Shown piece after piece: positions 3,551 to 41,079 of a stretch of DNA of 64,000 bases (the stretch's first letter is position 1; each line of letters starts with the position of its first letter). Below the pieces are notes generated by a model. That model saw only the letters and a list, made by a program, of their open reading frames with translations. It made no database searches and was not told the DNA's origin. Origin of the DNA: Haliotis rufescens (taxonomy: Eukaryota); NCBI RefSeq assembly GCF_023055435.1, contig NW_025963857.1, positions 28,892,001 to 28,956,000 on the forward strand, in the 5' to 3' direction. The position numbers were made by a program, and so were the translations under genes.

Positions 3551-5351
3551 CTATTCAAATCTGAAAACTTTCACGTACGTATAGCTGGAAACATACAGCA
3601 GACCATCATCATCCAGACAGATGCCAACAGGATACTCAGGGCAATACAGTGGTTTGAAAACATCTCTGACAAACTGCCCCGACTCTGTCAGCTGAATTAC
3701 CCTGTTGGAGCCACTGTCTACAAGCAGGATGTCGCCTGTGCTGGTTGATGTGATACCTCCGGGATATTTCAGAGCTTTGTTTCCTGTGGGAGTGTAGGTG
3801 AAAACAATTTTGCCTTCACTGGTCACAGATACCAGGGATTTTACTGTCCATTCACTAACCAACAAGCTGTTATTCCTCGTAACGTGAATATAGAAGGGGT
3901 TCTTTATCACACCTGTGTTGATAGATTTAAGAACATTCCCTTTCATATCCAGCACGTCAACAGAGGCACGACTGTCGTTACCACCTGCTACCAGTTGTGA
4001 AGAGTTCAGACAGGCTAACCCATAATACATCTTCTTTGTCTTCACAGTTGAGAGTAATGAAGGCTCAGGGTCAAAGTTGATGAAAGCTATTTGTCGTGAG
4101 GCTGGCAGAGTAACAGCTGCCAAAGCTTCACCCACCTTAGCTACTCGACTTGGACCAGTGGGAAGATCGAGACATTTCTGGATGAATGTTTTGTTTGAAG
4201 TATAACATGCATGAAGTCTACTGATTGAATTATCTGTCACAACAGTTACCTTGATACCATGAACAGTCAAAACTGCAACATCATTCAATGCACCGTACGT
4301 GTGTCCCTGCCTGCTGCAGTCAATTGTTTGCAGGGGACGCCGAGCAATTCCGATCTTCAGCTCATCCAAAGATCTCCTCAGCTTGGGGAGTTCGATGGTC
4401 AGAATGCTTTCAAAATCCGATCGTATTGATGACATCTTATCAGTGTAAGTTTTACTCTCCCTCAATTGGTTCCTTGTTTGATTGATCCGAGTTTCTTTTA
4501 CAAGAGGCGTCATGGCATCAATGGTTTCAACATCATCACACTTCCTGTGTTTGATGCTGCAGCATACAGTACAAATTGCCATCCTGCAATCTTTGCAAAA
4601 CAGTTTTATCTTCTCGTCCTTGTGAATTCTGCACATAGAGCTTGGAACCTTTGGTTTCCTATTCCGTAAGTCAATCACTTTATGGTCACGTAACCTTGGC
4701 ACCCTATTGTGCTTCATGACACACCCATCACAGAAAACATCGTCACAAATGGTGCACAACATGGTGGCTGGAGTTGTGTCCCCATCTCGTTTGCACACAC
4801 CACAGACATCAAGATCTGAACATAAAACACGATTTACTGATTATTTATTCAATTCAAACACGTCCACATAAATATATATTTTGTAAGCACCAGACTCAAG
4901 AGACAGAACATAATAATTATAAAATGTCTCGATTTTTCGCCGAAGCCTATTCTATTGGTCTCAAAAGATAAACAGTCAACAACACATGAAAGGATCACTG
5001 AGAACCAGTGATGACACCAGGGCAATCTTAAACGTTTCTTAAAGCGTATTATAATTAAATACCTTGCGATCCCACCAAATCGTCTATCAGGCCCTGTATG
5101 ACGTGGCTTGGTTTCAGACAATTGACCCATTCATGTACTGATCTGTCAGGAGTGGCCACCCTCGTCAGTTGTCTGCAGGAGGGACATGGAATGGATCTGG
5201 CTTGTATTGCTCCTGGCTGTGTTTTGGTGTATTTCAGCAGACACGACTTACAGAATGTGTGATTGCACTGAAGTGATGCAGGGTCTGTGAACACCTCTCT
5301 ACAGATGACACAGGTCAGATGGTTGTCTGTTATCCTTTTAGCGACGGCCAT
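3551..5351 (-). CDS. TRIM gene copy 1 (RING, B-box1, B-box2, shortened coiled coil, NHL-like propeller); join(5063..5351, 3551..4815), 517 aa
   Basis: RING exon MAVAKRITDNHLTCVIC..CNHTFCKSC..CPSC. Donor AAG|GTATTT at 5063/5062 and acceptor TTCAG|AT at 4816/4815 join in frame (phase 1) to the 3551..4798 ORF. That ORF has two B-boxes and NHL-like repeats (YPGGITSTSTGDILLVD, PVGICLDDDGLLYVS). No internal stop. Confidence 0.9.
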
Positions 5352-5687
5352 ATCTAATGGAAACATTAATATAAAGCGTTAAGACGGACCAGTTTCCATT
5401 GGACATAAAAGGCAAAATAGCGGTGATACATTCTATGAATGGATCACTTACAATCAGTAATGACACAGGTGTTTGAGGGTATTCCAAGGCAGATCAAGGA
5501 CAGGTCCCCAATATCCGATGCTTGTCACAAGATGATTTAAATGAGGGGGCTGCAATGTGTCACCTTCATTGAGAGTGTGGCATCGTTCACCAGCGACATG
5601 GGTTTTATTCATGCTATAAACAAGTGTTTGGCTGTGACTCCATTGAGTTTACTGGACACAAGCATGTATTTTGCATATTTGAAAAGC

Positions 5688-5690
<3 letters not shown>

Positions 5691-5752
<62 letters not shown>
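5691..5752. repeat. (AC)n microsatellite
   Basis: Direct inspection. Confidence 0.95.
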
Positions 5753-5754
<2 letters not shown>

Positions 5755-5955
5755 TAAATAATCGAGTCTGGACTAGACAATCGAGTGATTGACATCATGA
5801 GCATCGATCTACGCAATTGGGATACGATGACATGCATCACCCAAGTCAGCGAGCCTGACAACCCTATCCCGTTTGTCGCCTCTTGCGACAAGTAAATTCG
5901 CCTCCTACGACATGCATGAGTTGCTGAAGACATTTTCTAACCCGGATCTTCACGG
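5752..5955 (-). mobile_element. SINE-like family C in the 5' intron of copy 1 (further partial copies at ~6741-6985, ~7295-7462, ~8405-8592, ~11960-12120)
   Basis: Homologous to 495-750. Confidence 0.8.
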
Positions 5956-6169
5956 ATAATAGGTACATAAGTATAAACACTACCACCACTGCATTACTCT
6001 GTTCAGATATGACTGTTTGGTGTCACAAATACGTGATATATACAACATTATGATTGCATTGTCTTAGAAGACCCAATAGTTCATTTCACATGTCACATTT
6101 GTTTCAACCTTCAAGTCAGGACATTTGAGACTGAATTTTCAAGCTTCTTTCGTTATCGAATTGCAATTT

Positions 6170-6380
6170 ACCTTGATGTCGACTATACTTCAAATCTGTG
6201 AGTGCTTTTAAGACGAGTCGTGTGTAATAGATCAACAGTGACCAAGTGTTTTACCTTTACAGGTACTGCAACATGGACGAGCACTCGAGGTAAACAACGT
6301 CTCACTTCCTGGCTGACGCTTCACTGATGATCACGTGGTTATACCTGCTCGGCGTTAATGTATGCGATCACGTGACACGC
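6170..6380 (-). promoter_or_regulatory. Putative promoter / non-coding first exon of copy 1: twin E-boxes, ETS site, splice donors
   Basis: TCACGTG at 6331 and TCACGTGA at 6368; CCAGGAAGTG (minus) at 6303-6312; AAG|GTAAA donors at 6255 and 6172. The module is conserved upstream of the other copies. Confidence 0.6.
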
Positions 6381-6984
6381 GATACTCCATCACTGTGACA
6401 TACTTTCTCAGAGCAGCTGTGAGCTGTCAGCTGTTATATCATATTGAGAGAGTTTAGTTTGAAGAAGTATGATTGGAATGGCAAGTACAATGCTTCTCTA
6501 CACCTAATCTGTAAAATCCACTGTGGTTAATGCTCAGATACCATGTATGAAATACACACAAGACAATACAATATATTATGTATAATTCAAATTTGATCAG
6601 CTATGTGCAATTTTCTTACATAAGATTCCCACTAACTTCATAATGGACACTTTATTACTATAAATCTGTAATTTCAACCTGTGTACGTTAAACTAAATAC
6701 ATACTTTTTATTCGTACACTGGTATCTAAGTGTACTGTTTGCTTGTTTGTTCGTCAGCAATATTCCAGCTGTATGACGGTGGCCTGTTTTTAATCTGGAC
6801 TGGTATAAACTACCCAGTGATTGATATTGTGAACAACGTTCCACGCCGACGGGGAACGGTAACGCGCTACCCACCAAATCACTGAGTGCGACCACCCGAT
6901 CTACCAAGACGCCTCTAACGACAAACATGAGCCCTTACCTGCAAAGCCGTCATGGAGCTGAAATATTGCTAAGTGCTGCGTTAA

Positions 6985-7147
6985 ACACACACAAATACAC
7001 AGGCATACATACAGACACACACACATACACACAGATACTCACGCATACACAGACACACGCACACACATTCACAGGCACAATCACACAGACAGACACTGAC
7101 ACTTACACACACTTACACACACACACATTCACACACAAACACACACG
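6985..7147. repeat. Degenerate CA-rich simple repeat
   Basis: Direct inspection. Confidence 0.85.
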
Positions 7148-7689
7148 TACCTGAAAGACCACCTGTGTAAGTATAAATGTGACATTTGAAGGTGAAAGGA
7201 CAGGTGATTAATATCATGAACATCGATCGACGCAATGGGGATGACATTCATTTACTCTGGATGTGAATAATGTCTTTCAACTGTTGATGTTTGTTTATTT
7301 GTTTGTTTGCCGCACCAGCAATATTCCATCATGAGAATCGATCCACGTAATTGGGATACGATGACATGCATCAACCAAGTCAGCGAGCCCGACTACCCGC
7401 GTTCTTTAGTCGACTCTTACGACAAGCATAGTCACCTTTCACGGGAAGCATGGGATGCTGAAGAAAAATACAAAGCAAATAAGCACATATAATATATCTG
7501 ATATATCTTGACGCCCATACATATTTAAATGAGTTTGAGTTTTTGAAATGATGTAAACGCTGAGATTGCTATTACATTTCTGGGGAAATCCTGAAAATTC
7601 CTCGCATGTATAAAAACAGAAGCGCTGTTTCCGTTCATTTAGACACTTTAATCTTGAACTCAACGTCTTTTGCATACATTCGACAACGA

Positions 7690-7902
7690 CAGAGTGCTTA
7701 ACTGTGATCGAATATCCTTCCAATCTATGAATTTACAGTGACCTGTCGTATTACAAATACTGCAAGTACAGGATGTCAAACCTCAGAGTACTTAACTGCA
7801 TTCCTGTGATCGAATATCCTTGCAATCTATGAATTTACAGTGATCTGTCGCATTACATTTACAGCAAGTACAGGATGTCAAACGTCAGAGTTCTTAACTG
7901 CA
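7690..7902. repeat. ~100-bp direct tandem duplication
   Basis: TGTGATCGAATATCCTT..CAAGTACAGGATGTCAAAC..CAGAGT.CTTAACTGCA occurs twice. Confidence 0.85.
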
Positions 7903-9145
7903 TGCCCTAACGCCCTGACGTCATTCTGATCGTGAGAGTAAAGTAATAGACAAACTGTAACGGGGGCCCTTTAAAGTGAGACCGACGGTAGGTGTTGATA
8001 TATCTGTCTGCGAGTGAAGCAGGAAACTGTAAATCGTAACTGACACTGTCGTGTCCGTTAAACTGAACTTATGAATGCAATGCATAGAAACCAAACAATC
8101 CTTTCCTCTGGTCTTTTCAAGTCTGTCAACAGTTATATTTAGTGTGTTTGGTTAAACGGTAGAGCTAACCAGTTATAGTGGCAGAGAGATTAGGGTGTCA
8201 TTTGAGTGTGATGTCATGGTAACCAATGAAGTCACAATGGTCTGCAACGCATTGTGATGCAATTAAATTGCAGCGATATCTTCAGTGTAGATATCGCTTG
8301 ATCTCATCCAAGCGATATCTCCTGTGGGAGCCAGTTTTGGATGATAAATCACCATTTGAATGTGAATCTTACAATCATCACTTAACCCGCGGACACTCTG
8401 AGTTAAAATAGGTCCCCAGCAGCAGGCTGTTTGAAAGAGGCGAGTAATTAGATGCCATCGTATCCCAATTGCGTAGATCGATGCTCATGATGTCAATCGC
8501 TGAATTGTCTGGTCCAGACTCGATTATTTATAAACCGACGTAATATTGCTGGGCGCGACGTTAAACAACAACAAAAACAAACAAACAAACCAATGTACAA
8601 TATTTACATTTTAAACAGCAGTGTAACTGCTTGGAGTTATGCAATATGACATGGTGAAATACTGATAAAGGGACGTAACTCTGATAACACTATGCCAATG
8701 TTTGCAGCACTGTAAACAATACACTTCCCACTCCGTATGAACTACACATTACACAGTACAATAAATCATGTCAAATTCAAATTCTATTTGCAATGCTCCA
8801 TTTTATAACACATGCAAAATACCCGTTTCCTCCTGAAATACATAGACTGTAAACTTTACATAACACGGTTTAGACAGGACTTGTGACCATAGCTCTGTAT
8901 ATGTTTAACCTATGTTGAACTAAATACATAATTGACAAATAAACACTGATCTTTAATTAACTTCTAATATTAAGGAACATCGCCTTTTTAAGAATAACTA
9001 AACACGTGCTTCAAGTGTAGATGACAATGTCACAAATGATGATTATTTCCGCCAGTGACCCCTTGGGTAGACAGTGACCTCCTGGTTGTGGTCACCTGTC
9101 ACTGATGATCACGTGATACAAAGTTGCTGTGCGAGGAGGAGGAGG

Positions 9146-9640: not shown

Positions 9641-10146
9641 TTGTGTGTCATCATTGTCCATGTTATTCACTGCTTGTTAGTTTATTTCAATAACAGAAAG
9701 CACACATTTGGGGAATGGAAGTCGGTCTTTTGTGTGACAAGCAGTAGCTCTCAGTGAAGATAACATTGTACAATGATGACCATGTTTGATATGACACATG
9801 ATCGGTTTCTTCATTTCACAAGTTGTGAGGTACAAATAACCGCCTCTGTTGACAAGAGGATGGAGCGTCTGCCCGAGTAGGGTGGTTCGATCACCTGGCA
9901 CTCGGCATTCAGGGGATAACACAAGGTCTGGTCTGATGTAAAACCCAGTTTCACCTCTTCAGTGTTCGCTCCGGCTGAGCTTATAGTATCCAGTGCAAAT
10001 TAGCATCATACTCTATAAGAACGTTACTTTCTCGATACGATGTATTTGTGACAATACACTCTGTAAGCAGTGGCAGTAGTGATGTCGGACATTATCGATC
10101 GAATACCTAGTTTACGATTTCGCAGCTAGGCCTGATTCCTAGTCAG

Positions 10147-11281: not shown

Positions 11282-11282
<1 letters not shown>

Positions 11283-11329: not shown

Positions 11330-11331
<2 letters not shown>

Positions 11332-12595: not shown

Positions 12596-14463
12596 TTATT
12601 CAAAGGTAAATACTTTCACGGATTCAGAGCAGCTGACATACAGCAAGCCGTCATCATCCAGACAGATGCCACCAGGACAAAATAGACCATCCCGTGCTGT
12701 GAGAATATCTCTGACAAACTTTCCCGACTCTGTCAGCTGAATCACCTTGTTGGAGCCATTGTCTACAAGCAGGATGTCTCCTTTCTTGGTTGTTGTGATA
12801 CCTCGAGGCCATGTCAGAGCTCTTATTCCTGTGGGAGTGTATGTGAAAACAGTTTTGCCATCCCTTGTCACAGATACCAATGACTTTACTTCTCCTTCAC
12901 TTACTACCACATTGTTATTCCTCATGACATGAATATATAAAGGGTTCATTATAACACCTGTTTTGATGGATTTCAGAACATTCCCTTTCCTATCCAGTAT
13001 GTCAACAGAGGCACGACTCTCAATACCACCTGCCAGAAGTTGTGAAGAGTTCAGGCAGGCTAACCCATAATATTCCGTCTTTGTTTTCACAGTTGACAGT
13101 AATGTAGGTTCTGGGTCAAACTTGATGAAAGCTATTTGTCGTGTGTCTGGCAGAGTAACAGCTGCCTGAGCTCCATCCAGCTTAGCTATTTGAATTAGAG
13201 CAGAAGGTAGCTGGAGACATTTTTTAAAGGATAGTTTGTTTGAAGTATAAAATACACTAAGTCTATCATAATCTAACACCGTAGTTACCTTGATACCATC
13301 AACAGTCATTACTGAAACGTCACTCAAGTCACAGTCTGTGTATCCCTGTCTGCTACAGTCTAGTGTTTGCAGGAGAACAGGAGAAGACGTCCGGTCACTC
13401 AGGCCCTGAACAACCCTGACCTCCCCCAGCTGCACCTCAGCTACATATCTCAATAGCTTGTCTGTGTCATGTGTGAAGATAATACTGGAAGTTATTGGTG
13501 TCTTGTCCTCACTTGTGTCTTCAATTCTGGATACACCCACAGACCCATACATACCATACATGTCTTCTACACAGTTTCCCTCTACGGCTTTGTTTGTGAA
13601 CTCATGCCGCTGCTGATGCAGCTGGAGGTCGATCTCCTGGGACTTTCTGAAGGCTTTCAGTTCTTCTACACGTTTTTCTGTTAGTTTGTCGATGCGCTCC
13701 AGCAATTCCTTTTCTTTTCTCAGAAGAACATCTGTAGCAGCCATGCATACTTTCTGAACTTGGTCTTTCATCACTTGTGCGTTCTTCGATAGCTTTTCAA
13801 TTTCAGAGTTTGTTGATGAAATTACATCATTGTAAGATTTAATTTTATTCTTTTGCGTCCTAGTTTCATTGATCAGAGTTTTCTTTACAAGAGGCGTCAT
13901 GACATCTATGGTTTCAACATCATCACACTTCCTATGTTTGATACTGCAGCATACAGTACAAATTGCCATCCTGCAATCTTTACAAAACAGTTTTACTTTT
14001 TCGTCTTTGTGAATTCGGCACATAAAGCTTGATGCCTTTGGTTTCCTGTTACTATGAGTACGTACATCGATCACTTCATGATCACGTAACAGCGGCATCT
14101 TCTTGTGCATCTTGAGACATCCATCACAGAAGACATCGTCACAAATGGTGCAGTACATTGTTCCTGGAGTTGTCTCCCCATCTTCTTTGCACACGCTACA
14201 AGCCTCAAGATCTGAACAGAAAGCACGGAGTCTTACAAATAATGCAATTGCCAGAAAACATACTCACTTACTATTACTATTAGACATTCATTTTGTATAT
14301 ATACTATGTATAGTTACAAGATTATTCAATCCAACACTTATATAGAAAACTGCATTTTATATCAGTGACAGGACATTAAACCGTTTCATTATTTCCTACC
14401 TGGCGATGCCTCTAAAATGTCCATCAGCCCCTGTATTACTCGGCGTGGTTTGAGCTGGCTCAT
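12596..14463 (-). CDS. TRIM gene copy 2, RING-less: intact B-box/coiled-coil/NHL exon 12596..14211; possible start at in-frame ATG 14463 in the decayed RING exon (559 aa)
   Basis: 532-aa stop-free ORF. Acceptor TTCAG|AT at 14212/14211 and donor CAG|GTAGG at 14400/14399 are retained. In-frame ATGs at 14463 and 14424 (MSQLKPRRVIQGLMDILEASP). The start site is inferred. Confidence 0.7.
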
Positions 14464-14656
14464 CCACTCCTCTACTGGACTGTCAGGGATGTTAACCTTC
14501 GTCAGATGTCCACAGGGGGGACATGGGACGGACTTGGTTTGAATTGCTCCTCAGAGGCCTTACAGAATGTATGTGGTAGGATGGATTATTGAACATCTCT
14601 GCGGACAAAAACACAGGTCAGGTGGTTGTCTGTTAACTTCTTAGCGGTGGCAATTT
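14400..14656 (-). pseudogene. Degenerate RING exon of TRIM copy 2
   Basis: Homologous to the other RING exons (ATAKKLTDNHLTCV ... SVPCPPC ... VEEW). The start codon is ATT at 14654..14652, a frameshift and stop follow LTCV, and deletions remove the central RING ligands. Confidence 0.85.
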
Positions 14657-15709
14657 CTAATGAAAAGACATCATATGATTAAGTTTTGGTTTCAATACGA
14701 GTTTGTCACATTAAACTTTGTTGATGAGAAAATAAACCCTTATTTATTCTCTTTTCTATGCTCTACTTAAGTATCTGTTAATTCTGACTTTTGATACTCA
14801 GGAACCACCATGTTTAAAGTTTTATGCTTACTGTGATCATACCAAAAGAACATCAAATCATGTTGTCAACGTGTGACCTTACCTCAGTGAGTGACACTGT
14901 TCCTCGTCTGTATTTACAACCCAATCTAATTTTGCATGCTGCTTAAAGCGTCTGTCTGTCTGTCTGACTATCTATCTGTCTCTCTCTGAGTTAAGTTATA
15001 CTTGTGAATACTTAAAAAAACACTGTTTTATTTTTGTCTCTTGCAGAACACAATACGTCAGTTACAATATATCAGTGTATTTTGTGCAATATATCATTGC
15101 CTCTTGCTGTCATTGGTACTAAATAATTGTGTCGCTGAAATGCTGGATTTAATATATATCAACTGAAAGAAAGCACCTGATTATATTTTCAAAGAACATT
15201 TTCAGACATGCTTATACGTAGAGCATTTTACATTTAAACGAGTTCTTGTGTCCTATGTGATGTTATGTGGAACAAATAAAGGGACATAACTCTAATCTTG
15301 ATATGCTTAGTCCGCGACCCCAGTAATAACACTATATGCACCGCCACTGCATACATTGTATCTCTGTTCAAGTGGTTTTAGGGTACACAACAATGCCAAA
15401 CCTACAACAATGTTGTTTATATGTTTTGACAAGACCTGATAAACGGCCAGGCAAAAGAAAATTTACATATGAAAAACAATGGATTATCGGAATGTTAATA
15501 GGCTGAAAACAGACGACTAAACACTGCAAACTTAAGGTCGAAAACACAACTGTGACACCCGTATCAAACAAATCACCATCGAATAATTCTTTCTTGTTTG
15601 TTTCCCGTTTAGCCGTCATCAAACATTAGTGCATGCTTGCCCTGCAGTTTAATATATTTCACATGTCACACTTACTTTAACATTCAAGTCACGGCTTATG
15701 AAGTGCAAT

Positions 15710-15955
15710 TTGCCTTGATGTGGACTATCTATCTATGAAATTCTCAACACGATTCAGTGTAGATTGAATGCGAAATAAAAATATTTAAGATATTTTTCGA
15801 CAGTGATCTCGCGTTTTACCTTTACAGATACGGCAACATTGATGAGCACACGGGGTATACAGGGACTCACTTCCTGGTTGAGGCCACCCAACACTGATCA
15901 TGATCACGCCACACGGAGTTTCTAAAGGGGAAGAGGTATGTGATCACGTGACACA
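15710..15955 (-). promoter_or_regulatory. Putative promoter / first exon of copy 2
   Basis: CCAGGAAGTG at 15868-15877, TCACGTGA at 15944-15951, AAG|GTAAAA donor near 15819. The proximal E-box is disrupted. Confidence 0.55.
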
Positions 15956-17149: not shown

Positions 17150-18305
17150 GAAGTACATAGTGTAACATCAACATAGCAATATATCGGTCCCGAAGAGACG
17201 CAAATGCCGAGAGATATTGGTATGGCGAATATGGGCGCTTCACAGGGCCAACATCCGATGACGGTGCCAGGTACAACAATGCACCGGTACAACCAGAGAG
17301 GACACACCAGGGACAGGCCAAGGAGTGGTTAGACCATGTGTCATGATCCCCCGAGATGACCGCTATCTGTGACCTTTGTATCTTCGCAACCGTTTCCTGA
17401 CGGTGAGTTTTAGGCCGCAGCATCAGCCAATACACTGTGACAAGAAGACAACGTGCTGCTGGGATTCGGGCCTACCTTACGGTGGCATGACCCCGACCCA
17501 GTCGATGGCAGCGACGTGATTGGCAGAGGATGCTCGTCAATGATGAGTTAGATCCACCTGTTCAATGCAGATGGAAGAATCCGGGCGTACCGACGAAGAG
17601 GAGAGAGATCAGCTACAGGATGCGTCCAGGAGGAACAGTCCTTTAGTAGGGGAAGCATTATGGTCTGGGGAGATATGCAGTGATATGAAAACATGTCTTG
17701 TTATCCATGGAAACTTAAATGCCCAGAGCTACATGGATGAAATCCTTCAACCTGTTCTCACCCCCCTTCTCCGCCAGCAGTTTCAGGGTGTTTGTTCCAG
17801 CAATATCATGCTAAGACCATACTGCCCTTCTGACGCAAGATTCCTGGTAATCACGATCTTGGATCCTGACCGGTTTTGCCTTGGCCAGCCCACTCACCGG
17901 ATCCATCGACAATTGAACACCACTTGGACCCCTTTGACAGGCAGGTCAGAGAATAGCTCCAGCATCCCACAGCTATGATTGAGCTTGAACGAGTCCCAGT
18001 GGTAAATAGAAGCCAGATCCAAAATGACAAATGTCGGCAATGAGACGGTGGATGTTTGCCTATCCACTCTTGGATTAATGAACTCGCTAGATTATTTCAC
18101 ATGTAAATTCACTTTATGACCCCTCAGTTGTTTACATGCCTTGGACGTTTCTGTATGTAACGTCATCTTGGTTGTTTTCTTTATCACGTTCTCACACAAT
18201 ATTTAGATTATTGTTCAAATATACTGTACATTGTTACCATACGTGTTTTGCTTCATTTTCTTGCCATTTTAGATGATACTTGGTTTCTTTTGTTCGTCAT
18301 TTTAT
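17150..18305 (+). mobile_element. Degenerate Tc1-like transposon
   Basis: Broken frames read RPRV..DDRYL..LRNRF, W+RMLVNDE, GNLNAQSYMDEILQP, WPAHSPDPSTIEHHLD. Boundaries are approximate. Confidence 0.8.
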
Positions 18306-18712: not shown

Positions 18713-19776
18713 CGAGGGCCATTCAATATATAACCAGCCTGAGCTATTTATCAGATCTTAACGGTTGCATGTTTGTCACGTGCTGTGCACCAATGTATGT
18801 CACGTGCATAGACAAAGTTTCACTGAGGAAATTGTATTTGAAGTCACACACGTGATCTATAAAGATGGCAAGGGTAGATTCTGCCAAATTTTCGTCAAAG
18901 GTTGAATACAGGGCTGTTATTAGGTGCCTCTACTTAAAAGGGAAACCGGGAAAGGAGATACATGATGAATTGTCAGATGTTTATGGTGACAGTGCACCTT
19001 CGTATGCACAGGTCAAATTCTGGGTTGTAGACTTTAAGAGGGGTCGGGTGAACCTGGAAGATGAGCCACGCCCTGGCAGGTCTGTAGAGGTGACCAATGA
19101 CCAAACCAATGAAGCTGTGAGACAACTGGTTGTCAAAGACAGGCGAATTAAGGTGTCAGAAATGGCCAAGGCCTTGGACATTTCAGAAGGAAGTGTCCAT
19201 ACAATTTTTCATGATCGTCTGGGTATGAGGAAGGTGTCTGCCCGATGGGTCCCGAAATGTCCGAGTGATGATCAGAAGCGTCAATGTGTCAGGCACGTTT
19301 GACGCAATGCAGTCGGGATGCAGACAACTTTATGGAGAGTACTACTCCGATCTCCTGGACCGTTTGCGGACTGTTATTCTTGCCAAACGTCGTGGAAAGA
19401 TCACAAAAGGTGTGCTGCTCCAACATGATAATGCCAGAGTGCACACCTGTCGACTTGCGGTTGCCGCAGTGAAGCGAAGGGGTTCAAAGTATTGCCTGAT
19501 CCACCTTACTCACCAGACCTGGCACCAAGCGACTACTTTCTCTTCCCAAACTTAGAGAAAGAACTGGCGGACGTCATTTCCGGTCCGTGGATGAACTCAC
19601 GACAGCAGTGGAGGGGTGGTTACACGAACAACCCCATGGTTTCTATCACAACGGGCTTTTAGCTCTCACACATTGCTGGACAAAGTGCATAGACCTCAAT
19701 GGTGATTATTTGGAAAAAGAAGAAGTGAGGAGCAGTAGCAAATAGGTGAGGCTGGTTATATAATGAATGGCCCTCG
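18713..19776 (+). mobile_element. Mariner DNA transposon, internally deleted and frameshifted
   Basis: Inverted repeats CGAGGGCCATTCA.TATATAACCAGCCT at both ends, with TA at 18711-12. Transposase N-terminus 18865..19302 (HTH, ARWVPK), LLQHDNARVH, and PPYSPDLAPSDYFLFP near 19502. The region with the first catalytic D is missing. Confidence 0.93.
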
Positions 19777-22825: not shown

Positions 22826-24285
22826 CTCTATTTCAGTCAATCCTTCACAAAGGCGGATACTTTCACATGTTACAGTAAGAAGGTTCAGGGTTAAAGTTGA
22901 TGAAAGCTATTTGTAGTGTGTCTGGCAGAGCTGCATGAGCTTCGCCCACCTTAGCAAGTCGCCTTGGACAACCTTGACCTCCCCCAGCTGCACCTCATCT
23001 ACAGATCTCCTCAGTTTATCTGTGTCATGTGTGAAGACAATGGTGGATGGTATTGGTCTCTTGTCCTCACTTGTGTCCTTATCTCTGGGTGCTACGGTCA
23101 TAGTCTCATATATATCATACATGTCTGCTACACAGTGTGACGTCACGGCTTTGTCTATGAACCCATGCCGCTGCTGATGTATCTGGAGGTCAATCTCCTG
23201 GGACATTATGTAGCCTTTCAATTCTTCTACACGTGTCTCAGTGAGTTGGTCGATACGGTCCAGCAGTTTCTTTTCTTTTCTCAGAAGAACATCTACAGCT
23301 GCCATGCGTACTTTCTGAACTTGGTCTTTCATCTCCTGTGCGTTCGTCGATAGCTTTTCAATTTTCGAATTTGTTGAAGAAATATTATCAGTGTAAGTTT
23401 CAATTTTTTTCTCTTGGTTTCTAGTTTCAGTTATCAGACTTTCTTTTACAAGAGACGTCATTGTATCTATGGTTTCAACATCATCACACTTCCTGTGTTT
23501 GATACTGCAGCATACAGTACAAATTGCCATCCTGCAATCTTTACAAAACAGTTTTATCTTTTCATCTTTGTGAATTCTGCACATAAAGCGCTGTACCTTT
23601 GGTTTCCTGTTACTATGGATACGTAAGTCAATCACTTCATGGTCACGTGACAGCGGCATCTTCTTGTGTAACTTGAGACATCCATCACAAAAGACATCGT
23701 CACAAATGGTGCACCACACAGTGCCTGGAGTTGTCTCCCCATCTTCTTTGCACACGCTACAGGTATCTAAACATAAAGCACAGCGTGTCACAAATGATGC
23801 CATTTCTAGAAAACACAACCACATACTACAACTTTGAATACAAATTTTGAATGCACACGCGCCATAGTTGCCAGATGTTTAAATGTCAATATAAACCAGC
23901 TCACTTCGAACTCAATCCTGCTCACTTTAATAAATATAAAACTGCATTTCCAATACCTTGGTGTGCAAGACATGAAAACGTTTTAAATTTCCCTACCTGA
24001 CGATTCCCCAAAGTCGTCCATCAGCCCCTGTATCACATGACTTGGTTTCAGCTGACTGACCCACTCCACTACTGGACTGTCAGGGTTGGCCACCTTTGTC
24101 AGTTGTCTACAGGAGGGACATGGAATAGACTTGGCTTGAATTGCTTCAGGCTGTGTTTTGGTGTATTTCAGAAGACAGGACTTACAGAAAGTGTGATTAC
24201 ACTGAAGTGTGGCAGGGTCTGTGAACACCCCTGTACAGATGACACAGCTCAGATGGTTGTCCGTCAATTTCTTTGCGGTGGCCAT
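22826..24285 (-). pseudogene. TRIM gene copy 3: RING/B-box/coiled coil intact, propeller largely deleted; join(23997..24285, 22907..23766) = 382 aa truncated product
   Basis: Donor CAG|GTAGG at 23997 and acceptor TTTAG|AT at 23766. After GEVKVV the sequence jumps out of frame to the RRLAKVG..LPDT..IAFINFNPEPS blade, then to the terminal HVKV..FVKD segment, so there are at least two large internal deletions. Confidence 0.85.
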
Positions 24286-24919
24286 TTCTGAGGGAAAGAA
24301 ATCGTCAGACTTAGCTATGTCTTCAGTACGAGTTTATTTCCCATACATTTGATGACTGTGACATTGATACTCATGACACTCCATGGCTTAAGTTTTANNN
24401 NNNNNNNNNNNNNNNNNNNNNNNNNNNNNNNNNNNNNNNNNNNNNNNNNNNNNNNNNNNNNNNNNNNNNNNNNNNNNNNNNNNNNNNNNNNNNNNNNNNN
24501 NNNNNNNNNNNNNNNNNNNNNNNNNNNNNNNNNNNNNNNNNNNNNNNNNNNNNNNNNNNNNNNNNNNNNNNNNNNNNNNNNNNNNNNNNNNNNNNNNNNN
24601 NNNNNNNNNNNNNNNNATATACACACACCATTTTGATTCCATGTTCAGCTACGGGTCCTGTGTCCAGTACAATGGTCTTCTGATAAAGGGGCATAACTCG
24701 AATATTCATATACAAATTTGCGACGCCAGTATAAACACTGCCACCACTGCATAACTGTGTTCACGCTTGGATTCTTGAAACAAACACGTGCGACATATGG
24801 TAACGTCGTTTTGAAGACACCTAACTGTACATTCAACATATGTTAACATGTTACACTTATTTCAACCTGCAAGTCAGGACTCGAGGAATGTTCAAGCTGC
24901 TTTCGTTATTGAAGTTCAA

Positions 24920-25170
24920 TTTACCTTGATGTCGATTATATTTCAAATATATGAGTGGTTTTAACACGAGTCTGTGTGCAAATTCGAAAACAACTTATTC
25001 CAGTTACATTTAAACATACATATATTGTGTTACCTTTACAGATACCGCAACTTGGACGAGCACCCGGGGTAGACTGTTTTTCACTTCCTGGTTGTTGCCT
25101 TAGCCACACTGATGATCACGTGACATGTTCAAGCCATCGGGGAGAATGAATGTGATCACATGACACGCGA
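24920..25170 (-). promoter_or_regulatory. Putative promoter / first exon of copy 3
   Basis: ETS motif 25082-25091, TCACGTGA at 25116, TCACATGA at 25156. Confidence 0.55.
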
Positions 25171-25559
25171 TACTCGTACACTGTGACACGGTTTCTCAGA
25201 TCTATTGTGAGCTGTCAGCAGATATATCATGTTGTGAGAGTGTATTGTGACGAAACACTATTGGAATAACAAATACAATGCTCCCAATACAACGTCATAT
25301 GTGAAGTACTGTGCGCCATGTTCAAATACTATAATATATAAAATACACAGTACACAGTACAGTAAATCATGAATCATTCAAGTTATATTTGCAATGAATC
25401 ACTTTATAAATATATTCGTTGAAATAAACAGAATAAATAAGCTGTTGTGTTGTTCTTAGCAGAGAAAATGTCAATTCTAACAACAAGAAAACTGTAGAAA
25501 TTAAACCTTCTCATAATGCTCCAAGTCAGAAGACATTTGTCACTATGCACATGGGATCA

Positions 25560-30113: not shown

Positions 30114-32218
30114 TCAAAAGGTGAATATTTTCACAGAATAGAGGCCGGTAACGTAAAGCAAGCCATCATCATCCAGACAGATACCACGAGGACGCTCAAG
30201 GCCATCATGGTGTGTGAGAACATCTCTGACAAACTGCCCCGACTCTGTCAGCTGAATCATCCTGTTTGCGGCTCTGTCTACAAGCAGGATGTCTCCTGTG
30301 CTGGTTGTGTAGGGGTGTAGGTGAAAACAACTTCACCATCACAGGTCGCAGATACGAGGGATTTTACTGCAGCATCACTGAATAACAAGTTGTTATTTCT
30401 GGTGACATGAATATAGAATGGGTTCTTTATCACACCTGTGTTGATAGATTTAAGTACATTCCCTTTCATATCCAGCACGTCAACAGAGGCACGACTGTCG
30501 TCACCACCTGCTACCAGTTGTGAATAGTTCAGACAGGCTAACCCATAATACTCCCTCTTTGTCTTCACAGTTGAGAGTAATGAAGGCTCAGGGTCAAAGT
30601 TGATGAAAGCTATTTGTTTTGTGTCTGGCAGAGTAACAGCTGCCCGAGCTCCGCCCACCTTAGCCAGTCGTCTTGGACAAGTAGGAAGCTGGAGACAATT
30701 CTGGATGAGTGTTGTGTTTGAAGTATAACATGCATTAAGTCTACTACTACCATTACCTGTCACAACAGTTACCTTGATATCATGAACAACTAATACTGCA
30801 ACATCAAAACAAACCCTTGCAGAAGGCCCTATGTCTCCCTGTCTGCTACAGTCTATTGTTTGCAGGAGAACAGGAGAAGACGTCCGGTCATACAGACCTC
30901 CATAAACCTTGACCTCCCCAAGCTGCACCACAGCTACAGATCTCCTCAGTTTATCTGTGTCATGTGTGAAGACAATGGTGGATGGTATTGGTCTCTTGTC
31001 CTTACTTGTCATCTTATCTCTGGATGCTACAGACAAAGTCTCATATATATCATACATTTCTGCTACACAGTGTGACGTCACGGCTTTGTCTATGAACTCA
31101 TGCCGCTGCTGATGCATCTGGAGTTCAATTTCCTGGGACTTTCTGTGGGCTTTCAATTCGTCCATACGTATCTTAGTGAGTTGATCGATACGATCCAGCA
31201 GTTTCTTTTCTTTTCTCAGAAGAACGTCTACAGCTGCCATACGTACTTTCCGAACTTGGTCTTTCATCTCCTGTGCGTTCGTCGATAGCTTTTCAATTTT
31301 CGAATTTGTTGATGAAATATTCTCAGTGTAATTTTCAATTTTTCTCTCTTCGTTTCTAGTTTCAATTATCAGACTTTCTTTTACAAGAGGCGTCATTGTA
31401 TCTATGGTTTCAACATCATCACACTTCTTGTGTTTGATACTGCAGCAAACAGTACAAATTGCCATCCTGCAATCTTTACAAAACAGTTTTATCTTTTCAT
31501 CCTTGTGAATTCTGCACATAAAGCGCTGTGCCTTCGGTTTCTCGTTACTATGGATACATAAGTCAATCACTTCATGGTCACGTGACAGCGGCATCTTCTT
31601 GTGTAACTTGAGACATCCATCACAAAAGACATCGTCACAAATGGTGCACCACACAGCGCCTGGAGTTGTCTCCCCATCTTCTTTGCACACGCTACAGGTA
31701 TCTAAACATAAAGCACAGCGTGTTACAAACAATGCAATTTCTAGAAAACACAACCACATTGCACAACTTTTAAAACATACTGTATGTTTACGAGCCATAG
31801 TTGTTAGGTGTATAAATGTCAATATAAACCAGCTCACTTCGAACTCAATCCTTCTCACTTTAATAAATATGAAACTGCATTTCCAATATCTTGGTGTGCA
31901 AGACATGAAAACGTTTAAAAATTCCCTACCTGACGATTCCCCCAAATCGTCCATCAGCCCCTGGATGACGTGGCTTGGTTTCAATTGACTGACCCACTTC
32001 TCTACAGGACTTTCAGGGTTGGCCACCTTCGTCAGTTGTCTGCAGGAGGGACATGGAATAGACTTGGCTTGAATTGCTTTAGGCTGTGTTTTGGTGTATT
32101 TCAGCAGACACGACTTACAGAATGTGTGACTACACTGAAGTGTGGCAGGGTCTGTGAACACCTTTGCACAGATGAGACAGGTCAGATGGTTGTCCGTCAA
32201 TTTCTTTGCGGTGGCCAT
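30114..32218 (-). pseudogene. TRIM gene copy 4 with C-terminal frameshift; join(31930..32218, 30278..31701) = 570 aa
   Basis: Same splice sites as the paralogues. A ~37-nt deletion near 30308 relative to copy 5 shifts the frame after FTYTPT. The remaining blades (GDILLVD..PRGICLDDDGLLYVT) continue in another frame to ~30114. Confidence 0.85.
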
Positions 32219-33129
32219 TTCTGATGGAAAGAAATACTCCGACTTAGCTATATCTTCAGTACGAGTTTATGAAAATATATTTCATGGTCCTAAGTATCTC
32301 CAATGATCTATTCTTGATCATAATAAAACACACATACACACACAAACAGACACACACATACATGCATAATTACACACACACACACACACACACGTACATA
32401 CTCCACACNNNNNNNNNNNNNNNNNNNNNNNNNNNNNNNNNNNNNNNNNNNNNNNNNNNNNNNNNNNNNNNNNNNNNNNNNNNNNNNNNNNNNNNNNNNN
32501 NNNNNNNNNNNNNNNNNNNNNNNNNNNNNNNNNNNNNNNNNNNNNNNNNNNNNNNNNNNNNNNNNNNNNNNNNNNNNNNNNNNNNNNNNNNNNNNNNNNN
32601 NNNNNNNNNNNNNNNNNNNNNNNNNNNNNNNNNNNNNNNNNNNNNNNNNNNNNNNNNNNNNNAGCTACGGGTCCTGTGTCCAGTGCAATGGTATACTGAT
32701 AAAGGGACATAACTCTAATATTCATATACAAATTTGCGACTCTTGTATAAACACTGCCACCACTGCATTAATCCGTTCACACTTGGATTCTAGATCTCAC
32801 AAGCACGTGCGACATATGGTTACGTCGTTTTGAAGAGACCTAACAGCACATTCAACATCTGTCAACATGTTACACTTATTTCAANNNNNNNNNNNNNNNN
32901 NNNNNNNNNNNNNNNNNNNNNNNNNNNNNNNNNNNNNNNNNNNNNNNNNNNNNNNNNNNNNNNNNNNNNNNNNNNNNNNNNNNNNNNNNNNNNNNNNNNN
33001 NNNNNNNNNNNNNNNNNNNNNNNNNNNNNNNNNNNNNNNNNNNNNNNNNNNNNNNNNNNNNNNNNNNNNNNNNNNNNCTTCAAGTCAGGACTCGAGGAAT
33101 TGTCAAGCTACTTTCGTTATTGAAGTTCA

Positions 33130-33380
33130 ATTTACCTTGATGTCGACTATATTTCAAATATATGAGTGGTTTTAACACGAGTCTGTGTGCAATGAATCCG
33201 AAAACAACATATTCCAGTTACATTTTATCAGACATCTATTGTGTTACCTTTACAGATACGCAACCTGGACGAGCACCCGGGGTAGACTGTTTATCACTTC
33301 CTGGTTGTTGCCTCAGCTACACTGATGATCACGTGACATGTTCAAGCCATCGGGGAGAATGAATGTGATCACGTGACACG
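33130..33380 (-). promoter_or_regulatory. Putative promoter / first exon of copy 4
   Basis: ETS motif 33295-33304, TCACGTGA at 33329 and 33369. Confidence 0.55.
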
Positions 33381-33759
33381 CGATTCTCGTACACTGTGAC
33401 ACAGTTTCTCAGATCTATTGTGAGCTGTCAGCAGATATATCATGTTGTGAGAGTTTATTGTGACGAAACATTATTGGAATAACAACGTCATATGTGAAGT
33501 ACTGTGCGCCATGTTCAAATACTATAATATATAAAATACACAGTACACAGTACAGTAAATCATGAATAATTCACATTATATTTGTAATGAATCACTTTAT
33601 AAATATATTCGTTTTATGTTGAAATAGACAGAATAAACAAGCTGTTGCGTTGTTCTTAGCAGAGAAAATGTCAATTTTAACAACAAGAAAACTGTAGAAA
33701 TTATACCTTCACATATTGCTCCAAGTCAGAAGACATTTGTCATTATGCACATGGGATCA

Positions 33760-37200: not shown

Positions 37201-38118
37201 AACAATAAATTTGTTTACAACATTTCAAACATGGTAGGGGCCAAGTGGTTGCAAATCCATTTCTTACAGCAGTCTTCACTAAATTTGTTTACACACATTT
37301 ACCCAGACACAGATGACGTTTTACACACTTTTGCAGGAATGAGTGATGGCTGAAGAGAAATGCTCAAACTTAACAACAGTTCTTTACATTTTCAATTACA
37401 AAAAAACCCGATCGGTAAACCTTCCTTTGTCCCTCTGATTATTATTCATCCCAGCTAAGCGTACACCAAAGTTATTTCCCTTTATGTTGCGCAATGTCTA
37501 TACGTAAAGTATTTCCGTTTATAATCAATTAACTGGGCTTTTGACAGATAATCAATGCGAATAATGTTATACACCCTTAATTCATTCTATAAAATAAGGT
37601 GATAAATCGAGACATAATGTTATTGATAACCACAGTGGATGAATATTTAACTCTTGGATTCTACGACGAGTGACGAAACGTTCAAATCTAAAGAATCAGG
37701 GTAGAGCTGTTCTTGACCGCGATCGAGACATTTTGCCATTCGATCCCCCTTTTGTAATCTTTCCTGATAAACAAGGGAACACGATACTGCCCCTCAGTCC
37801 TGCCCCTGCCCCTGCTTTTAGTAATAAATGCAATAGTGTTTCCTGTGTAGTGTATGTAATGACTTTATACTCACGCTCTTGGACATACATATATGTTTAT
37901 CATGCAAGATTAAAAGACAACCCACTTTTCCGAGATCACAGTGTAAATATATTAACTATTCGTCTCTGTAATAAAGTATACCGCGTTGACGCTTTTTGCT
38001 CTCAATTCTACAAAATAACAAATTTTCCGCCATCATTACAACCATTTCACCTCTTTCATGTGTGATTTTGTCTTCATAATGCGAAGAACTGGACTGATTG
38101 AATAACTATCGCAGGAGT

Positions 38119-38650
38119 AAGGTGAGGTGAAATTGGGTTTGGTTAGTGAGTGAGTATGGTTTTACGCCGCTTTTAGCAATTTTCCAACAATATCACGGCG
38201 GGGGTCACCAGAAATGGGCTTCACACATTGTACCCATGTCGGGAATCGAACCCGGGTGTTCGGCGTGACGAGCGAACGCTTTAACGCTTTAACCACTAGG
38301 TTACCCGACCGCCCGGGTTTAACGTCGCGTCCAAGATTATTGCAATATAGCGACGTGCCTGCACGTATGTGTGTGTCTGATTTTACTAGTCTGGACTGAT
38401 AACGATTTATAGTGATAGCTCGCTGAGATACCATGCCGCAGTTTAACATGAAGACTCCACACACACACAGTATACTGACTCAGAGCCGATCAGTCCTTGT
38501 TGTATATTTAGCCCCTTAATGTCGAGCGCCAGACATCGTAACAAGAAGTACTATCTTTTGACGTCGTTTGGTAAAACGCGGCCGGGGATCGAACCCCGGA
38601 CCTTCCGCTCTCCGGGCGGACAATCTACCACTTGACCACGGGTGCGGTCC
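38119..38650 (-). mobile_element. SINE family D (tRNA head, Meta-domain-like core) downstream of copy 5
   Basis: TGGT.AAGTGG and GGTTCGATCCCC boxes. TSD TATCGCAGGAGT at 38107-18 and 38651-62. The Meta-domain assignment is from recall. Confidence 0.88.
38141..38314 (-). mobile_element. SINE family A nested in a family D SINE
   Basis: TSD GGGTTT at 38135-40 and 38315-20. Uninterrupted host copy at ~29510. Confidence 0.9.
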
Positions 38651-38927
38651 TATCGCAGGAGTCATATGTAGGGATCGGGTGAAGCGATGTTAAAAAAATC
38701 AGATGCAAGTGTACCTGTCCATCACTCACAATGTGTTCTCAACCCATCTGAACGCACGACAAACACAACAGTCGTTGTCCCCAAAAGTAATTCGCTCCCA
38801 TGTCCGGTTCATTCAGCACGGTTTTACGAACAGTTTGGCTATTTGCAATCAGTTAGGTCTTGTATACAGCGTATGTGTGGCTCACAGCTAGCTTCTACAC
38901 GACAAAGTAATGTGTATCTATTTCAGT

Positions 38928-41079
38928 CTATCCTTCACAAAAGGTGAATACTTTCACATGATCATCGCTGGTAACGTAAAGCAAGCCATCATCATCCAGA
39001 CAGATACCACGAGGACTCTCAAGGCGATCATGTTGTGTGAGAACATCTCTGACAAACTGCCCCGACTCTGTCAGCTGAATCACCCTTTTGGTGCCTCTGT
39101 CTACAAGCAGGATGTCTCCTGTGCTGGTTGTTGTGACACCTCGAGGATATTTCAGAGCATTGTCTCCTGAAGGGGTGTAGGTGAAAACAACTTCACCATC
39201 ACAGGTCGCAGATACCAGGGATTTTACTGCAGCATCACTGACTATCAAGTTGTTATTTCTCGTGACATGAATATAGGATGGGTTCTTTATCACACCTGTG
39301 TTGATAGATTTAAGAACATTCCCTTTCATATCCAGCACGTCAACAGAGGCACGACTGCCGATACCACCTGCTACCAGTTGTGAAGAGTTCAGACAGGCTA
39401 ACCCATAATACTTCTTCTTTGTCTTCACAGTTGACACTTGTGTGGGTTCAGTGTTAAAGCTGATGAAAGCTATTTGTTTTGTGTCTGGCAGAGTAACAGC
39501 TACCCGAGCTCCACCAACCTTAGCTACTTGCTTTGGAACAGCGGGAAGATCGAGACATTTCTGGATGAGTCTTTTGTTTGAAGTATAACATGCATGAAGT
39601 CTACTATTAAACCTATCTATCACAACAGTTACCTTGATACCATCAACAACTAATACTGCAACATCAAATAAACTATCGACCCAGGTCCAGATGTCTTCCT
39701 CTCTGCTACAGTCTATTGTTTGCAGGAGAACAGGAGAAGACGTCCGGTCACTCACATCCTGAACAACCATGACCTCCCCCAGATGCACCTCAGCTACAGA
39801 TCTCCTCAGTTTATCTGTGTCATGTGTGAAGACAATACTGGATAGTACTGGTCTCTTGTCCTCACTTGTGTCCTTATCTCTGGATGCTACAGCCACAGTC
39901 TCATATATATCATACATGTCTCCTACACAGTTTGACGTTACGGCTTTATCTGTGAACTCATACCGCTGCTGATGCATCTGGAGCTCAATCTCCTGGGACT
40001 TTCTGTTGGCTTTCAAGTCTTGTACACGTGTCTCAGTGGGTTGGTCGATACGATCAAGCAGTTTCTTTTCTTTTCTCAGAAGAACGTCTACAGCTGCCAT
40101 GCGTACTTTCTGAACTTGGTCTTTCATCTCCTGTGCGTTCGTCGATAGCCTTTCAATTTTCGAATTTGTTGAAGTAATATTATCAGTGTAAGTTTCAATT
40201 GTTTTCTCTTGGTTTCTAGTTTCAGTTATCAGACTTTCTTTCACAAGAGGCGTCATTGTATCTATGGTTTCAACATCATCACACTTCCTGTGTTTGATAC
40301 TGCAGCATACAGTACAAATTGCCATCCTGCAATCTTTACAAAACAGTTTTATCTTCTCATCCTTGTGGATTCTGCACATAAAGCGCTGTGCCTTTGGTTT
40401 CTCGTTACTATGGATACATAAGTCAATCACTTCATGGTCACGTGACAGCGGCATCTTCTTGTGTAACTTGAGACATCCATCACAAAAGACATCGTCACAA
40501 ATGGTGCACCACACAGTGCCTGGAGTTGTCTCCCCATCTTCTTTGCACACGTTACAGGTATCTAAACATAAAGCACAGCGTGTTACAAATAATGCAATAT
40601 CTAGAAAACACACTCACATACTACAACTTTTAATACATACTGTATGTTTACGGGCCATAGTTGTTAGGTGTATAAATGTCAATATAAACCAGCTCACTTC
40701 GAACTCAATACTTCTCACTTTAATAAATATAAAAACTGCATTTCCAATACCTTGGGGTGCAAGACATGAAAACTTTTCAAAATTCCCTACCTGACGATTC
40801 CCCCAAATCGTCCATCAGACTCTGTATAATGTGGTTTGGTTTCAGCTGTCTGACCCACTCCTCTACTGGTCTAGCAGGGTTGGCCACCTTCGTCAGCTGT
40901 CTACAGGAGGGACATGGAATAGACTTGGCTTGAATTGCTTGAGGCTGTGTTTTGGTGTATTTCAGCAAACAGGACTTACAGAATGTGTGACTACACTGAA
41001 GTGTGGCAGGATCTGTGAACACTTCTGTACAGATGACACAGGTCAGATGGTTGTCCGTCAATTTCTTTGCGGTGGCCAT
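38928..41079 (-). CDS. TRIM gene copy 5, full-length RING/B-box1/B-box2/coiled-coil/NHL-like E3 ligase; join(40791..41079, 38928..40561), 640 aa
   Basis: ATG 41079 lies 2 nt after an AG acceptor. Donor CAG|GTAGG at 40791, acceptor TTTAG|AT at 40561. All Zn ligands are present and there are no stops. Architecture resembles TRIM2/3, TRIM56 and TRIM71, but orthology cannot be assigned. Confidence 0.93.

What the first reader, a model, noticed from the sequence alone, without database searches (positions are those of the whole stretch)
3551..41079. Neighbouring paralogues each lack a different TRIM module
Seen: copy 1 lacks most of the coiled coil, copy 2 lacks the RING, copy 3 lacks the propeller, copy 4 lacks the last blades, and copy 5 is complete. 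In copies 1-3 the retained parts are stop-free with intact Zn ligands and splice sites. Known: TRIMs dimerise through the coiled coil, and RING-less or C-terminally truncated forms can act as dominant negatives or adaptors. Inference: the locus may encode a mix-and-match set of sensor-only, ligase-only and full proteins rather than only decaying copies. Plain birth-and-death decay remains the null hypothesis.
Basis: partly seen in the sequence, partly recalled or inferred. Interest (0 to 1): 0.7.

Follow-up and report, generated by a model that had tools for sequence, protein, structure and literature searches.

The report
Abalone TRIM array keeps truncated copies
In a fast-turnover row of duplicated abalone TRIM ubiquitin-ligase genes, two shortened copies (one without the ligase part, one without most of its pairing helix) are also found in a sister species and likely still work, while the two copies with broken tails are likely just decaying.

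Summary
The window holds seven copies of a RING-B-box-B-box-coiled coil-NHL gene in a tandem array of an abalone; its translations are identical to Haliotis rufescens RefSeq models. The lesions are real but unequal. Copy 2 is an old RING-less gene. Its RING exon is still present but broken, an in-frame Met at its end gives a 559-aa protein, the B-boxes stayed under purifying selection (dN/dS about 0.1-0.2), and H. cracherodii has the same protein. Copy 1 lost 105 residues of coiled coil in frame, is spliced, and has a 517-aa orthologue with the same deletion; selection since the deletion is only weakly shown. Copies 3 and 4 carry frameshifting deletions on short branches, with no orthologue found that shares them, and look like neighbouring dead copies. 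Only 6 of 17 aligned cluster copies are intact. Four random lesions would hit three or more modules 55% of the time. Verdict: birth-and-death array in which one or two truncated forms were kept; the mix-and-match complex is untested.

The parts
5063..5351 (-). Copy 1 coding exon 1: intact C3HC4 RING
   Evidence: spliced to 4815 in contig 21 of run X19
3551..4815 (-). Copy 1 exon 2: B-box1, B-box2, about 42 aa of coiled-coil helix fused in frame to the last short helix, six-bladed NHL-like propeller; junctions near 4385-4392 (315 bp lost) and 4348-4355 (36 bp lost)
   Evidence: the 315-bp junction is bridged without gaps by contigs of runs X9, X18 and X19; orthologue P0001
14400..14654 (-). Copy 2 broken RING exon (start lost, +1, -10, -25 bp), still with acceptor and donor; two short upstream ORFs (ATG at 14596 and 14524)
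14461..14463 (-). In-frame ATG that opens the RING-less 559-aa protein; a second in-frame ATG at 14424 is shared with most intact paralogues
   Evidence: RefSeq P0111 and H. cracherodii P0007 both start here
12596..14211 (-). Copy 2 exon 2: open B-box1, B-box2, coiled coil, NHL
   Evidence: B-box dN/dS 0.11-0.23
23997..24285 (-). Copy 3 RING exon, intact
22907..23766 (-). Copy 3 exon 2: B-boxes and coiled coil, then a 226-bp frameshifting deletion at about 22968 and an out-of-frame tail; further 6-, 1- and 472-bp deletions follow
31930..32218 (-). Copy 4 RING exon, intact
30114..31701 (-). Copy 4 exon 2: 37-bp deletion at 30308 shifts the frame (stop 30278-30280); the last two blades lie downstream out of frame
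   Evidence: blade count inferred from the copy-1 model
38928..41079 (-). Copy 5, complete 640-aa RING-B1-B2-CC-NHL gene (exons 40791-41079 and 38928-40561)
44584..44999 (-). Two decayed RING-exon scraps
55322..57430 (-). Copy 6, dead: nonsense codon at RING-exon codon 75, 15-bp deletion in B-box1, +1 frameshift
62945..64000 (-). 3' part of copy 7, an intact gene that runs past the window end

Best explanation
This is a tandem array of abalone TRIM-NHL genes with many broken copies, in which RING-less copy 2 likely works as a non-catalytic binding scaffold, coiled-coil-less copy 1 likely works as a stand-alone ligase, and copies 3 and 4 are likely recent decay. Shown: the array turns over by segmental duplication, and most copies in it are broken. 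Shown: the RING sits in its own exon with an in-frame Met near its 3' end, so a RING-exon lesion leaves a complete B-box-coiled coil-NHL frame. Shown: in copy 2's lineage the RING exon decayed while the B-boxes barely changed. Inferred: copy 2 binds targets through its propeller and dimerises through its intact coiled coil without ubiquitinating, so it would shield targets or dampen RING-bearing paralogues. Inferred: copy 1 brings RING and propeller close on one chain and cannot form the usual antiparallel dimer, so it would need RING or B-box contacts, or clustering on a target, to be active. Inferred from fast propeller evolution: the targets are pathogen-derived or otherwise fast-changing.
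For: Turnover: 143 scored matches among 440 candidates genome-wide. The cluster is triplicated in blocks at 94-99% identity. 6 of 17 aligned cluster copies are intact, and 39 of 56 loci fetched elsewhere are intact (my tally). Copy 2: the -10 and -25 bp RING lesions are shared by all three duplicates. On that branch, RING-remnant dN is 0.15-0.22 against B-box dN 0.02-0.05 at dS about 0.2, and B-box dN/dS is 0.11-0.23 with upper limits 0.34-0.50. Among the three duplicates the B-boxes show 1 replacement and 6 silent changes (p = 0.0009). An unselected 1611-bp exon would stay open over 0.10 substitutions per site with P = 0.004 from nonsense changes alone. H. cracherodii has the same 559-aa form with 7 differences, against 15-25 expected if neutral. 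Exon 2 is covered by RNA-labelled contigs of X9, X17 and X18. Copy 1: H. cracherodii orthologue of 517 aa with the same deletion. Gap-free contigs of three organism labels cross the junction, and one contig is spliced. The propeller is predicted with high confidence and matches TRIM NHL domains. Branch dN/dS is 0.40-0.44 in the B-boxes. Copies 3 and 4: frameshifts, branch dS 0.03-0.05, copy 3's 90% cluster mate in H. cracherodii is full length, and copy 4's cluster is a singleton.
Against: Over all of exon 2, copy 2 and its duplicate differ by 10 replacement and 6 silent changes (dN/dS 0.59, not significant). That duplicate also lost the first in-frame start by a 1-bp deletion. Two upstream ORFs precede copy 2's start, and translation is not shown. 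Contigs cannot separate copy 2 from its 96.6%-identical duplicate, and the RNA label of the runs is a guess. For copy 1, 12 interspecies differences are compatible with neutrality at the low divergence estimate (P = 0.34; 0.009 at the high one). Three of them hit near-invariant B-box2 columns, and its RING and B-box dN/dS are higher than in most sister copies. Copy 3's four lesions all fall after the coiled coil, which hints that its RING-B-box-coiled coil part may be kept. NHL dN/dS near 1 fits relaxed selection as well as diversifying selection. No function was tested.
Confidence: 0.62

Rival explanations
1. Full mix-and-match: sensor-only, ligase-only and full proteins are all kept and assemble into hetero-oligomers that tune ligase output.
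For: Copy 2 is a kept RING-less form with a full coiled coil. Beyond the window, four copies of a propeller-less RING-B-box-coiled coil gene are all open. Copy 3's lesions cluster in the propeller. TRIM2 and TRIM3 paralogues interact and modulate each other (PMC9732051, passages).
Against: The module pattern is expected by chance (P = 0.55). Copies 3 and 4 have no orthologue found with the same lesion. The four propeller-less copies show 24 replacement and 7 silent changes, dN/dS 1.07. Copy 1 lacks most of the pairing helix. A four-bladed remnant as in copy 4 would likely misfold (inference).
Confidence: 0.15
2. Plain decay of all four: copies 1 and 2 are transcribed pseudogenes whose frames have not yet been hit.
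For: The family has dN/dS 0.6-1.0 even among intact copies. RING-exon-only lesions occur in 3 of 56 other loci, about what length predicts. Copy 1's interspecies changes include conserved B-box2 sites. The species split is only 4.3 Ma (10.1101/2024.09.16.613283, passages).
Against: For copy 2, the contrast between the decayed RING exon and the conserved B-boxes on one branch, the 1:6 replacement-to-silent count and the low odds of frame survival. For copy 1, every internal indel seen keeps the frame.
Confidence: 0.18
3. The lesions are assembly errors or rare alleles.
For: Single-base and short frameshifts in near-identical tandem copies are typical assembly errors (general knowledge); this stays open for copy 4 and partly for copy 3.
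Against: Copy 1's and copy 2's forms recur in an independent H. cracherodii assembly, copy 1's junction recurs in contigs of three runs, and copy 2's lesions recur in two duplicates.
Confidence: 0.05

Closest known systems
TRIM-NHL proteins without filamin domain (TRIM32/Thin, TRIM56 type); also TRIM2, TRIM3, TRIM71
   Same: RING-B-box-coiled coil order with a C-terminal six-bladed propeller. The best fold matches are the NHL domains of Thin (6d69), TRIM2, Brat, TRIM71 and TRIM3; the profile search also hits TRIM3, TRIM2, Brat and the TRIM28 RBCC.
   Different: Only 15-18% identity over the propeller; no filamin domain among the Pfam hits; more than 140 copies in tandem arrays rather than a few conserved genes. 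All 108 listed hits at E <= 1e-30 that carry a name are from Haliotis.
RING-less 'incomplete' TRIMs (human TRIM29, TRIM44, TRIM66; Drosophila Brat)
   Same: B1-B2-CC plus C-terminal domain without RING, as in copy 2. PMC2533329 lists six human RING-less TRIMs (passages); that Brat lacks a RING is recalled.
   Different: Here the dead RING exon is still in place and still spliced (inferred from contig depths), the loss is confined to one abalone subfamily, and RING-bearing sister copies sit next door.
Coiled-coil-less TRIMs (human TRIM48, TRIM52)
   Same: RING and B-box kept, coiled coil missing, as in copy 1.
   Different: TRIM48 and TRIM52 end right after B-box2 (PMC2533329, passages). Copy 1 has an internal in-frame deletion and keeps a whole C-terminal propeller and both B-boxes.
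TRIM2-TRIM3 paralogue pair
   Same: Precedent for an inactive paralogue modulating an active one (PMC9732051, passages).
   Different: That contact uses filamin and coiled coil, and both proteins have RINGs. No interaction is shown here.

Membership tests
TRIM (RBCC) family | N-terminal RING with eight Zn ligands | tested here: met
   Copies 1 and 5 pass Pfam zf-C3HC4 and zf-RING_UBOX cut-offs; copies 3 and 4 by alignment. Not met in copy 2, whose RING exon is broken.
TRIM (RBCC) family | One or two B-boxes after the RING | tested here: met
   PF22586 and PF00643 above cut-off in copies 1, 2 and 5; ligands kept in copies 3 and 4.
TRIM (RBCC) family | Long coiled coil after B-box2 | tested here: inconclusive
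   Copies 2-5 keep about 165 residues that align with the TRIM28 RBCC (profile 14-296); no coiled-coil predictor was run. Copy 1 lacks 105 of them and has one 55-residue helix of low confidence, so it is an 'incomplete' TRIM.
TRIM (RBCC) family | E3 ligase activity and antiparallel dimerisation | not testable with these tools
   Needs biochemistry.
TRIM-NHL (class VII) | C-terminal six-bladed NHL propeller | tested here: met
   PF01436 above cut-off in copies 1, 2 and 5; copy-1 model confident over the propeller, top matches NHL domains. Not met in copies 3 and 4.
TRIM-NHL (class VII) | RNA binding by the NHL top face | not tested
   Residues were not mapped; at 15-18% identity and dN/dS near 1 the ligand is unknown.
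Birth-and-death multigene family | Tandem duplicates of mixed age with intact and dead copies side by side | tested here: met
Dominant-negative or adaptor paralogue system | Truncated member co-expressed with, and binding, the full member | not testable with these tools
   Contigs give no cell-level co-expression; binding needs co-purification.

The most novel reading that the evidence does not exclude
Abalones have evolved, inside one expanding TRIM-NHL array, a modular set: a coiled-coil-less RING-B-box-NHL ligase that works without the canonical TRIM dimer (copy 1), a RING-less decoy or adaptor (copy 2) and propeller-less ligase-only forms (copy 3 and the four copies beyond the window), with the exon layout (a spare Met at the end of the RING exon) repeatedly giving birth to RING-less regulators.
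Probability: 0.2. Interest if true: 0.7.

Novelty: new variant of a known kind. Interest (0 to 1): 0.42.

Why it matters
RING-less TRIMs are known, but here the birth of one can be read in place: dead exon, rescue start, conserved remainder. Copy 1 is a natural, spliced, species-shared TRIM with RING, both B-boxes and a whole propeller but little coiled coil. That makes it a ready test of whether a TRIM ligase can work without the coiled-coil dimer. The family itself (over 140 copies, fast-evolving propellers) is a candidate variable immune-recognition repertoire in a farmed and threatened mollusc; I found no paper describing it in the listings.

Tried and rejected
1) Predicted homodimer of copy 1 (residues 97-517): no verdict (score 0.00); not used either way. 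2) Runs X9, X13 (RNA-labelled) and X5, X6 (DNA) laid on copy 3: none of the 32 listed pieces bridges either deletion junction, and loose ends there continue as intact paralogue sequence. 217 pieces were not shown and a lack of cover proves nothing, so fixation and expression of copy 3 stay open. 3) The run search listed no holder on record as RNA; the RNA labels are guesses, except where a contig is spliced. 4) Whole-gene dN/dS as a dead-or-alive test was rejected: intact copies give 0.6-1.0. Branch values come from three-way pairwise distances, are noisy, and may be disturbed by gene conversion. 5) P0028/P0042 as a second conserved RING-less pair was rejected: 87% identity is too low for strict orthologues, and the H. 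rufescens RING exon has a single 1-bp insertion. 6) P0113 as the strict orthologue of copy 3 was rejected: 91% identity; it is only the nearest H. cracherodii relative found. 7) No close full-length relative of the propeller-less type beyond the window was found (best 47% among 10 longer hits; weak evidence). 8) No earlier scan findings matched. 9) Paper searches for a coiled-coil-less RING-B-box-NHL protein or an abalone TRIM array listed none; I saw only titles and abstract openings, and the library is incomplete. 10) No cluster copies in 20 kb on either side of the array (L077-L080).
Full report
Setting. The window is G000:C79:28892001-28956000 of a 1.33-Gb animal genome. The spliced translations of copies 1-5 are identical to RefSeq models of Haliotis rufescens. 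Each copy lies on the minus strand with a RING exon, a short intron and one long exon for B-box1, B-box2, coiled coil and NHL propeller. The C-terminal half of copy 5 finds 143 scored matches among 440 candidates in the genome. The local array runs on for about 200 kb past the window and is duplicated in blocks of 94-99% identity.

The observation. Copy 1 has in-frame deletions of 315 and 36 bp. Copy 2 has not lost its RING exon; the exon is broken by a lost start and +1, -10 and -25 bp changes, while exon 2 is open. Copy 3 has a 226-bp frameshifting deletion after the coiled coil, followed by 6-, 1- and 472-bp deletions. Copy 4 has one 37-bp frameshifting deletion. Copy 5 is whole. Splice sites and retained Zn ligands are intact. 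Copies 3 and 4 hit the same module, and four lesions placed by length would hit three or more modules with P = 0.55. The window also holds RING scraps, a dead copy 6 and part of an intact copy 7.

Base rate. Of 17 cluster copies aligned to copy 5, 6 are intact, 1 lacks the coiled coil, 2 are RING-less with an open exon 2, and 8 are otherwise broken (one stop taken). Four further copies of a distinct propeller-less type were examined apart. I fetched 56 loci for the best matches outside the cluster, out of the 143 listed. By my tally, 39 are intact, 12 are broken in exon 2 or fragmentary, 3 have a broken RING exon with an open exon 2, 1 lacks B-boxes and most of the coiled coil, and 1 is unclear. 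That sample was found with the propeller, so it misses propeller-less copies. This is birth-and-death turnover.

Copy 2 is an old, kept RING-less gene. The -10 and -25 bp lesions are shared with two duplicates beyond the window. An in-frame ATG at 14463 gives a 559-aa protein with both B-boxes; RefSeq and an H. cracherodii model both start there and differ at 7 residues. With the published split of 4.3 Ma, mutation rate 8.6e-9 and 6-year generations (10.1101/2024.09.16.613283, passages seen), neutral divergence is 0.012, or about 0.02 with ancestral diversity (my estimate). That predicts 15-25 replacements; P(7 or fewer) is 0.016 or less. On the branch to copy 2, the old RING frame has dN 0.15-0.22 while the B-boxes have dN 0.02-0.05 at dS about 0.2 (dN/dS 0.11-0.23). 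Among the three duplicates the B-boxes carry 1 replacement and 6 silent changes (p = 0.0009). An unselected exon 2 would stay open over 0.10 substitutions per site with P = 0.004 from nonsense changes alone, and far less with indels (nonsense share and indel rate; the neutral span is my estimate from the RING dN). RNA-labelled contigs of X9, X17 and X18 cover exon 2; one X17 contig stops aligning at the acceptor, and the same depth reappears in the RING remnant, which I read as splicing. Against: over all of exon 2, copy 2 and its whole duplicate show 10 replacement and 6 silent changes, not significant. The duplicate lost the first start, two upstream ORFs precede it, one duplicate is cut short by foreign sequence, and contigs cannot tell the duplicates apart.

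Copy 1 is a shared, spliced, coiled-coil-less gene. H. cracherodii has a 517-aa orthologue, 98% identical, with the same deletion. Contigs of X9, X18 and X19 (three organism labels) cross the 315-bp junction without gaps, and X19 contig 21 joins 5063 to 4815. The model has a confident propeller (blocks mostly 85-96 pLDDT), a single 55-residue helix of low confidence in place of the coiled coil, and unreliable Zn domains. Its best fold matches are NHL domains of Thin, TRIM2, Brat, TRIM71 and TRIM3. Branch dN/dS is 0.49 in the RING (interval to 1.02) and 0.40-0.44 in the B-boxes (intervals to 0.84-0.89), but this branch includes time before the deletion. The 12 interspecies differences fit neutrality at the low divergence estimate (P = 0.34) but not at the high one (P = 0.009), and three lie at near-invariant B-box2 positions. 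I rate it likely functional, perhaps under relaxed constraint.

Copies 3 and 4. Both sit in a young, star-like subfamily with branch dS 0.03-0.05 and uninformative dN/dS. Copy 3's 90% cluster mate in H. cracherodii is a full 638-aa protein, though at 91% identity it is not a strict orthologue; copy 4's cluster has one member. Copy 4 would leave an unclosed four-bladed propeller (inference). Copy 3's lesions all fall after the coiled coil, which may mean that the front part is kept, or may be one complex event; an unselected front part would stay open with P = 0.04-0.48. Whether either lesion is fixed or expressed is open.

How it likely works. Intact copies are predicted E3 ligases that dimerise through the coiled coil and bind targets through a propeller whose dN/dS is about 0.8 among intact copies, against 0.34 in the RING; this suggests changing targets but also fits relaxed selection. 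Because a Met lies at the end of the RING exon in most copies, RING loss yields a ready-made B-box-coiled coil-NHL frame. Usually this is a stage of decay (3 of 56 loci), but in copy 2's lineage it was kept, likely as a non-catalytic scaffold or damper. Copy 1 would be a short, non-canonical ligase. Hetero-oligomers are plausible by analogy with TRIM2 and TRIM3 (PMC9732051, passages seen) but are not shown.

Comparison and novelty. Human 'incomplete' TRIMs include six without a RING and two without a coiled coil, the latter ending right after B-box2 (PMC2533329, passages seen). Copy 2 is thus a new member of a known type. Copy 1, with an internal coiled-coil deletion and a whole C-terminal domain, is a variant I did not find in the listings. 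Searches listed no paper on this abalone family; only titles and abstract openings were seen, and supplements of abalone genome papers, which I did not read, may list the expansion. Verdict: new variant of a known kind, interest 0.42.

Noticed in passing
L002:5791-7096 (minus), with three duplicates further along C79 (about +110, +173, +206 kb in window coordinates): A distinct propeller-less RING-B1-B2-coiled coil gene (P0117, 379 aa) in four copies, all open, each followed by heavily decayed remains of another copy. The copies differ by 24 replacement and 7 silent changes; a Logan protein (P0122, 94% identical) ends at about the same place; the best full-length relative is 47-56% identical.
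   Followed up: partly
L057, L062, L063: RING exon broken by a single lesion with exon 2 open; RING-less database models such as P0028 start at the Met near the exon end, so many 'RING-less' database entries may be recent breaks.
   Followed up: partly
L070:4087-5760: A distant family member with a RING exon and an NHL frame but no B-boxes and little coiled coil; H. rubra P0067 and H. asinina P0073 models also lack the coiled coil (gene models unchecked).
   Followed up: no
P0126 (H. cracherodii, 1328 aa), P0127 (H. asinina, 1284 aa), P0125 (1219 aa): Double-length models that look like two family units fused; real read-through or annotation joins.
   Followed up: no
window 30278-32266: Copy 4's intron has no stop in frame, giving a 662-aa stop-to-stop frame through exon 1, intron and exon 2; likely chance.
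   Followed up: no
window 18856-19745: Broken ORFs that resemble a mariner/Tc1-type transposase (resemblance recalled, not searched) between copies 2 and 3; similar fragments at 17547-17978.
   Followed up: no
window 5970-6593, 15658-15954, 24728-25384, 33078-33577, 41854-42323, 57995-58639: Conserved blocks upstream of each copy; every RING exon has an AG acceptor just before the start codon, so an untranslated first exon likely lies upstream.
   Followed up: no
window 4658-4662: Run X18 carries 9 extra in-frame bases here, matching the length of the other paralogues; the 9-bp loss in copy 1 is therefore not shared by all organisms that share the big deletion.
   Followed up: no
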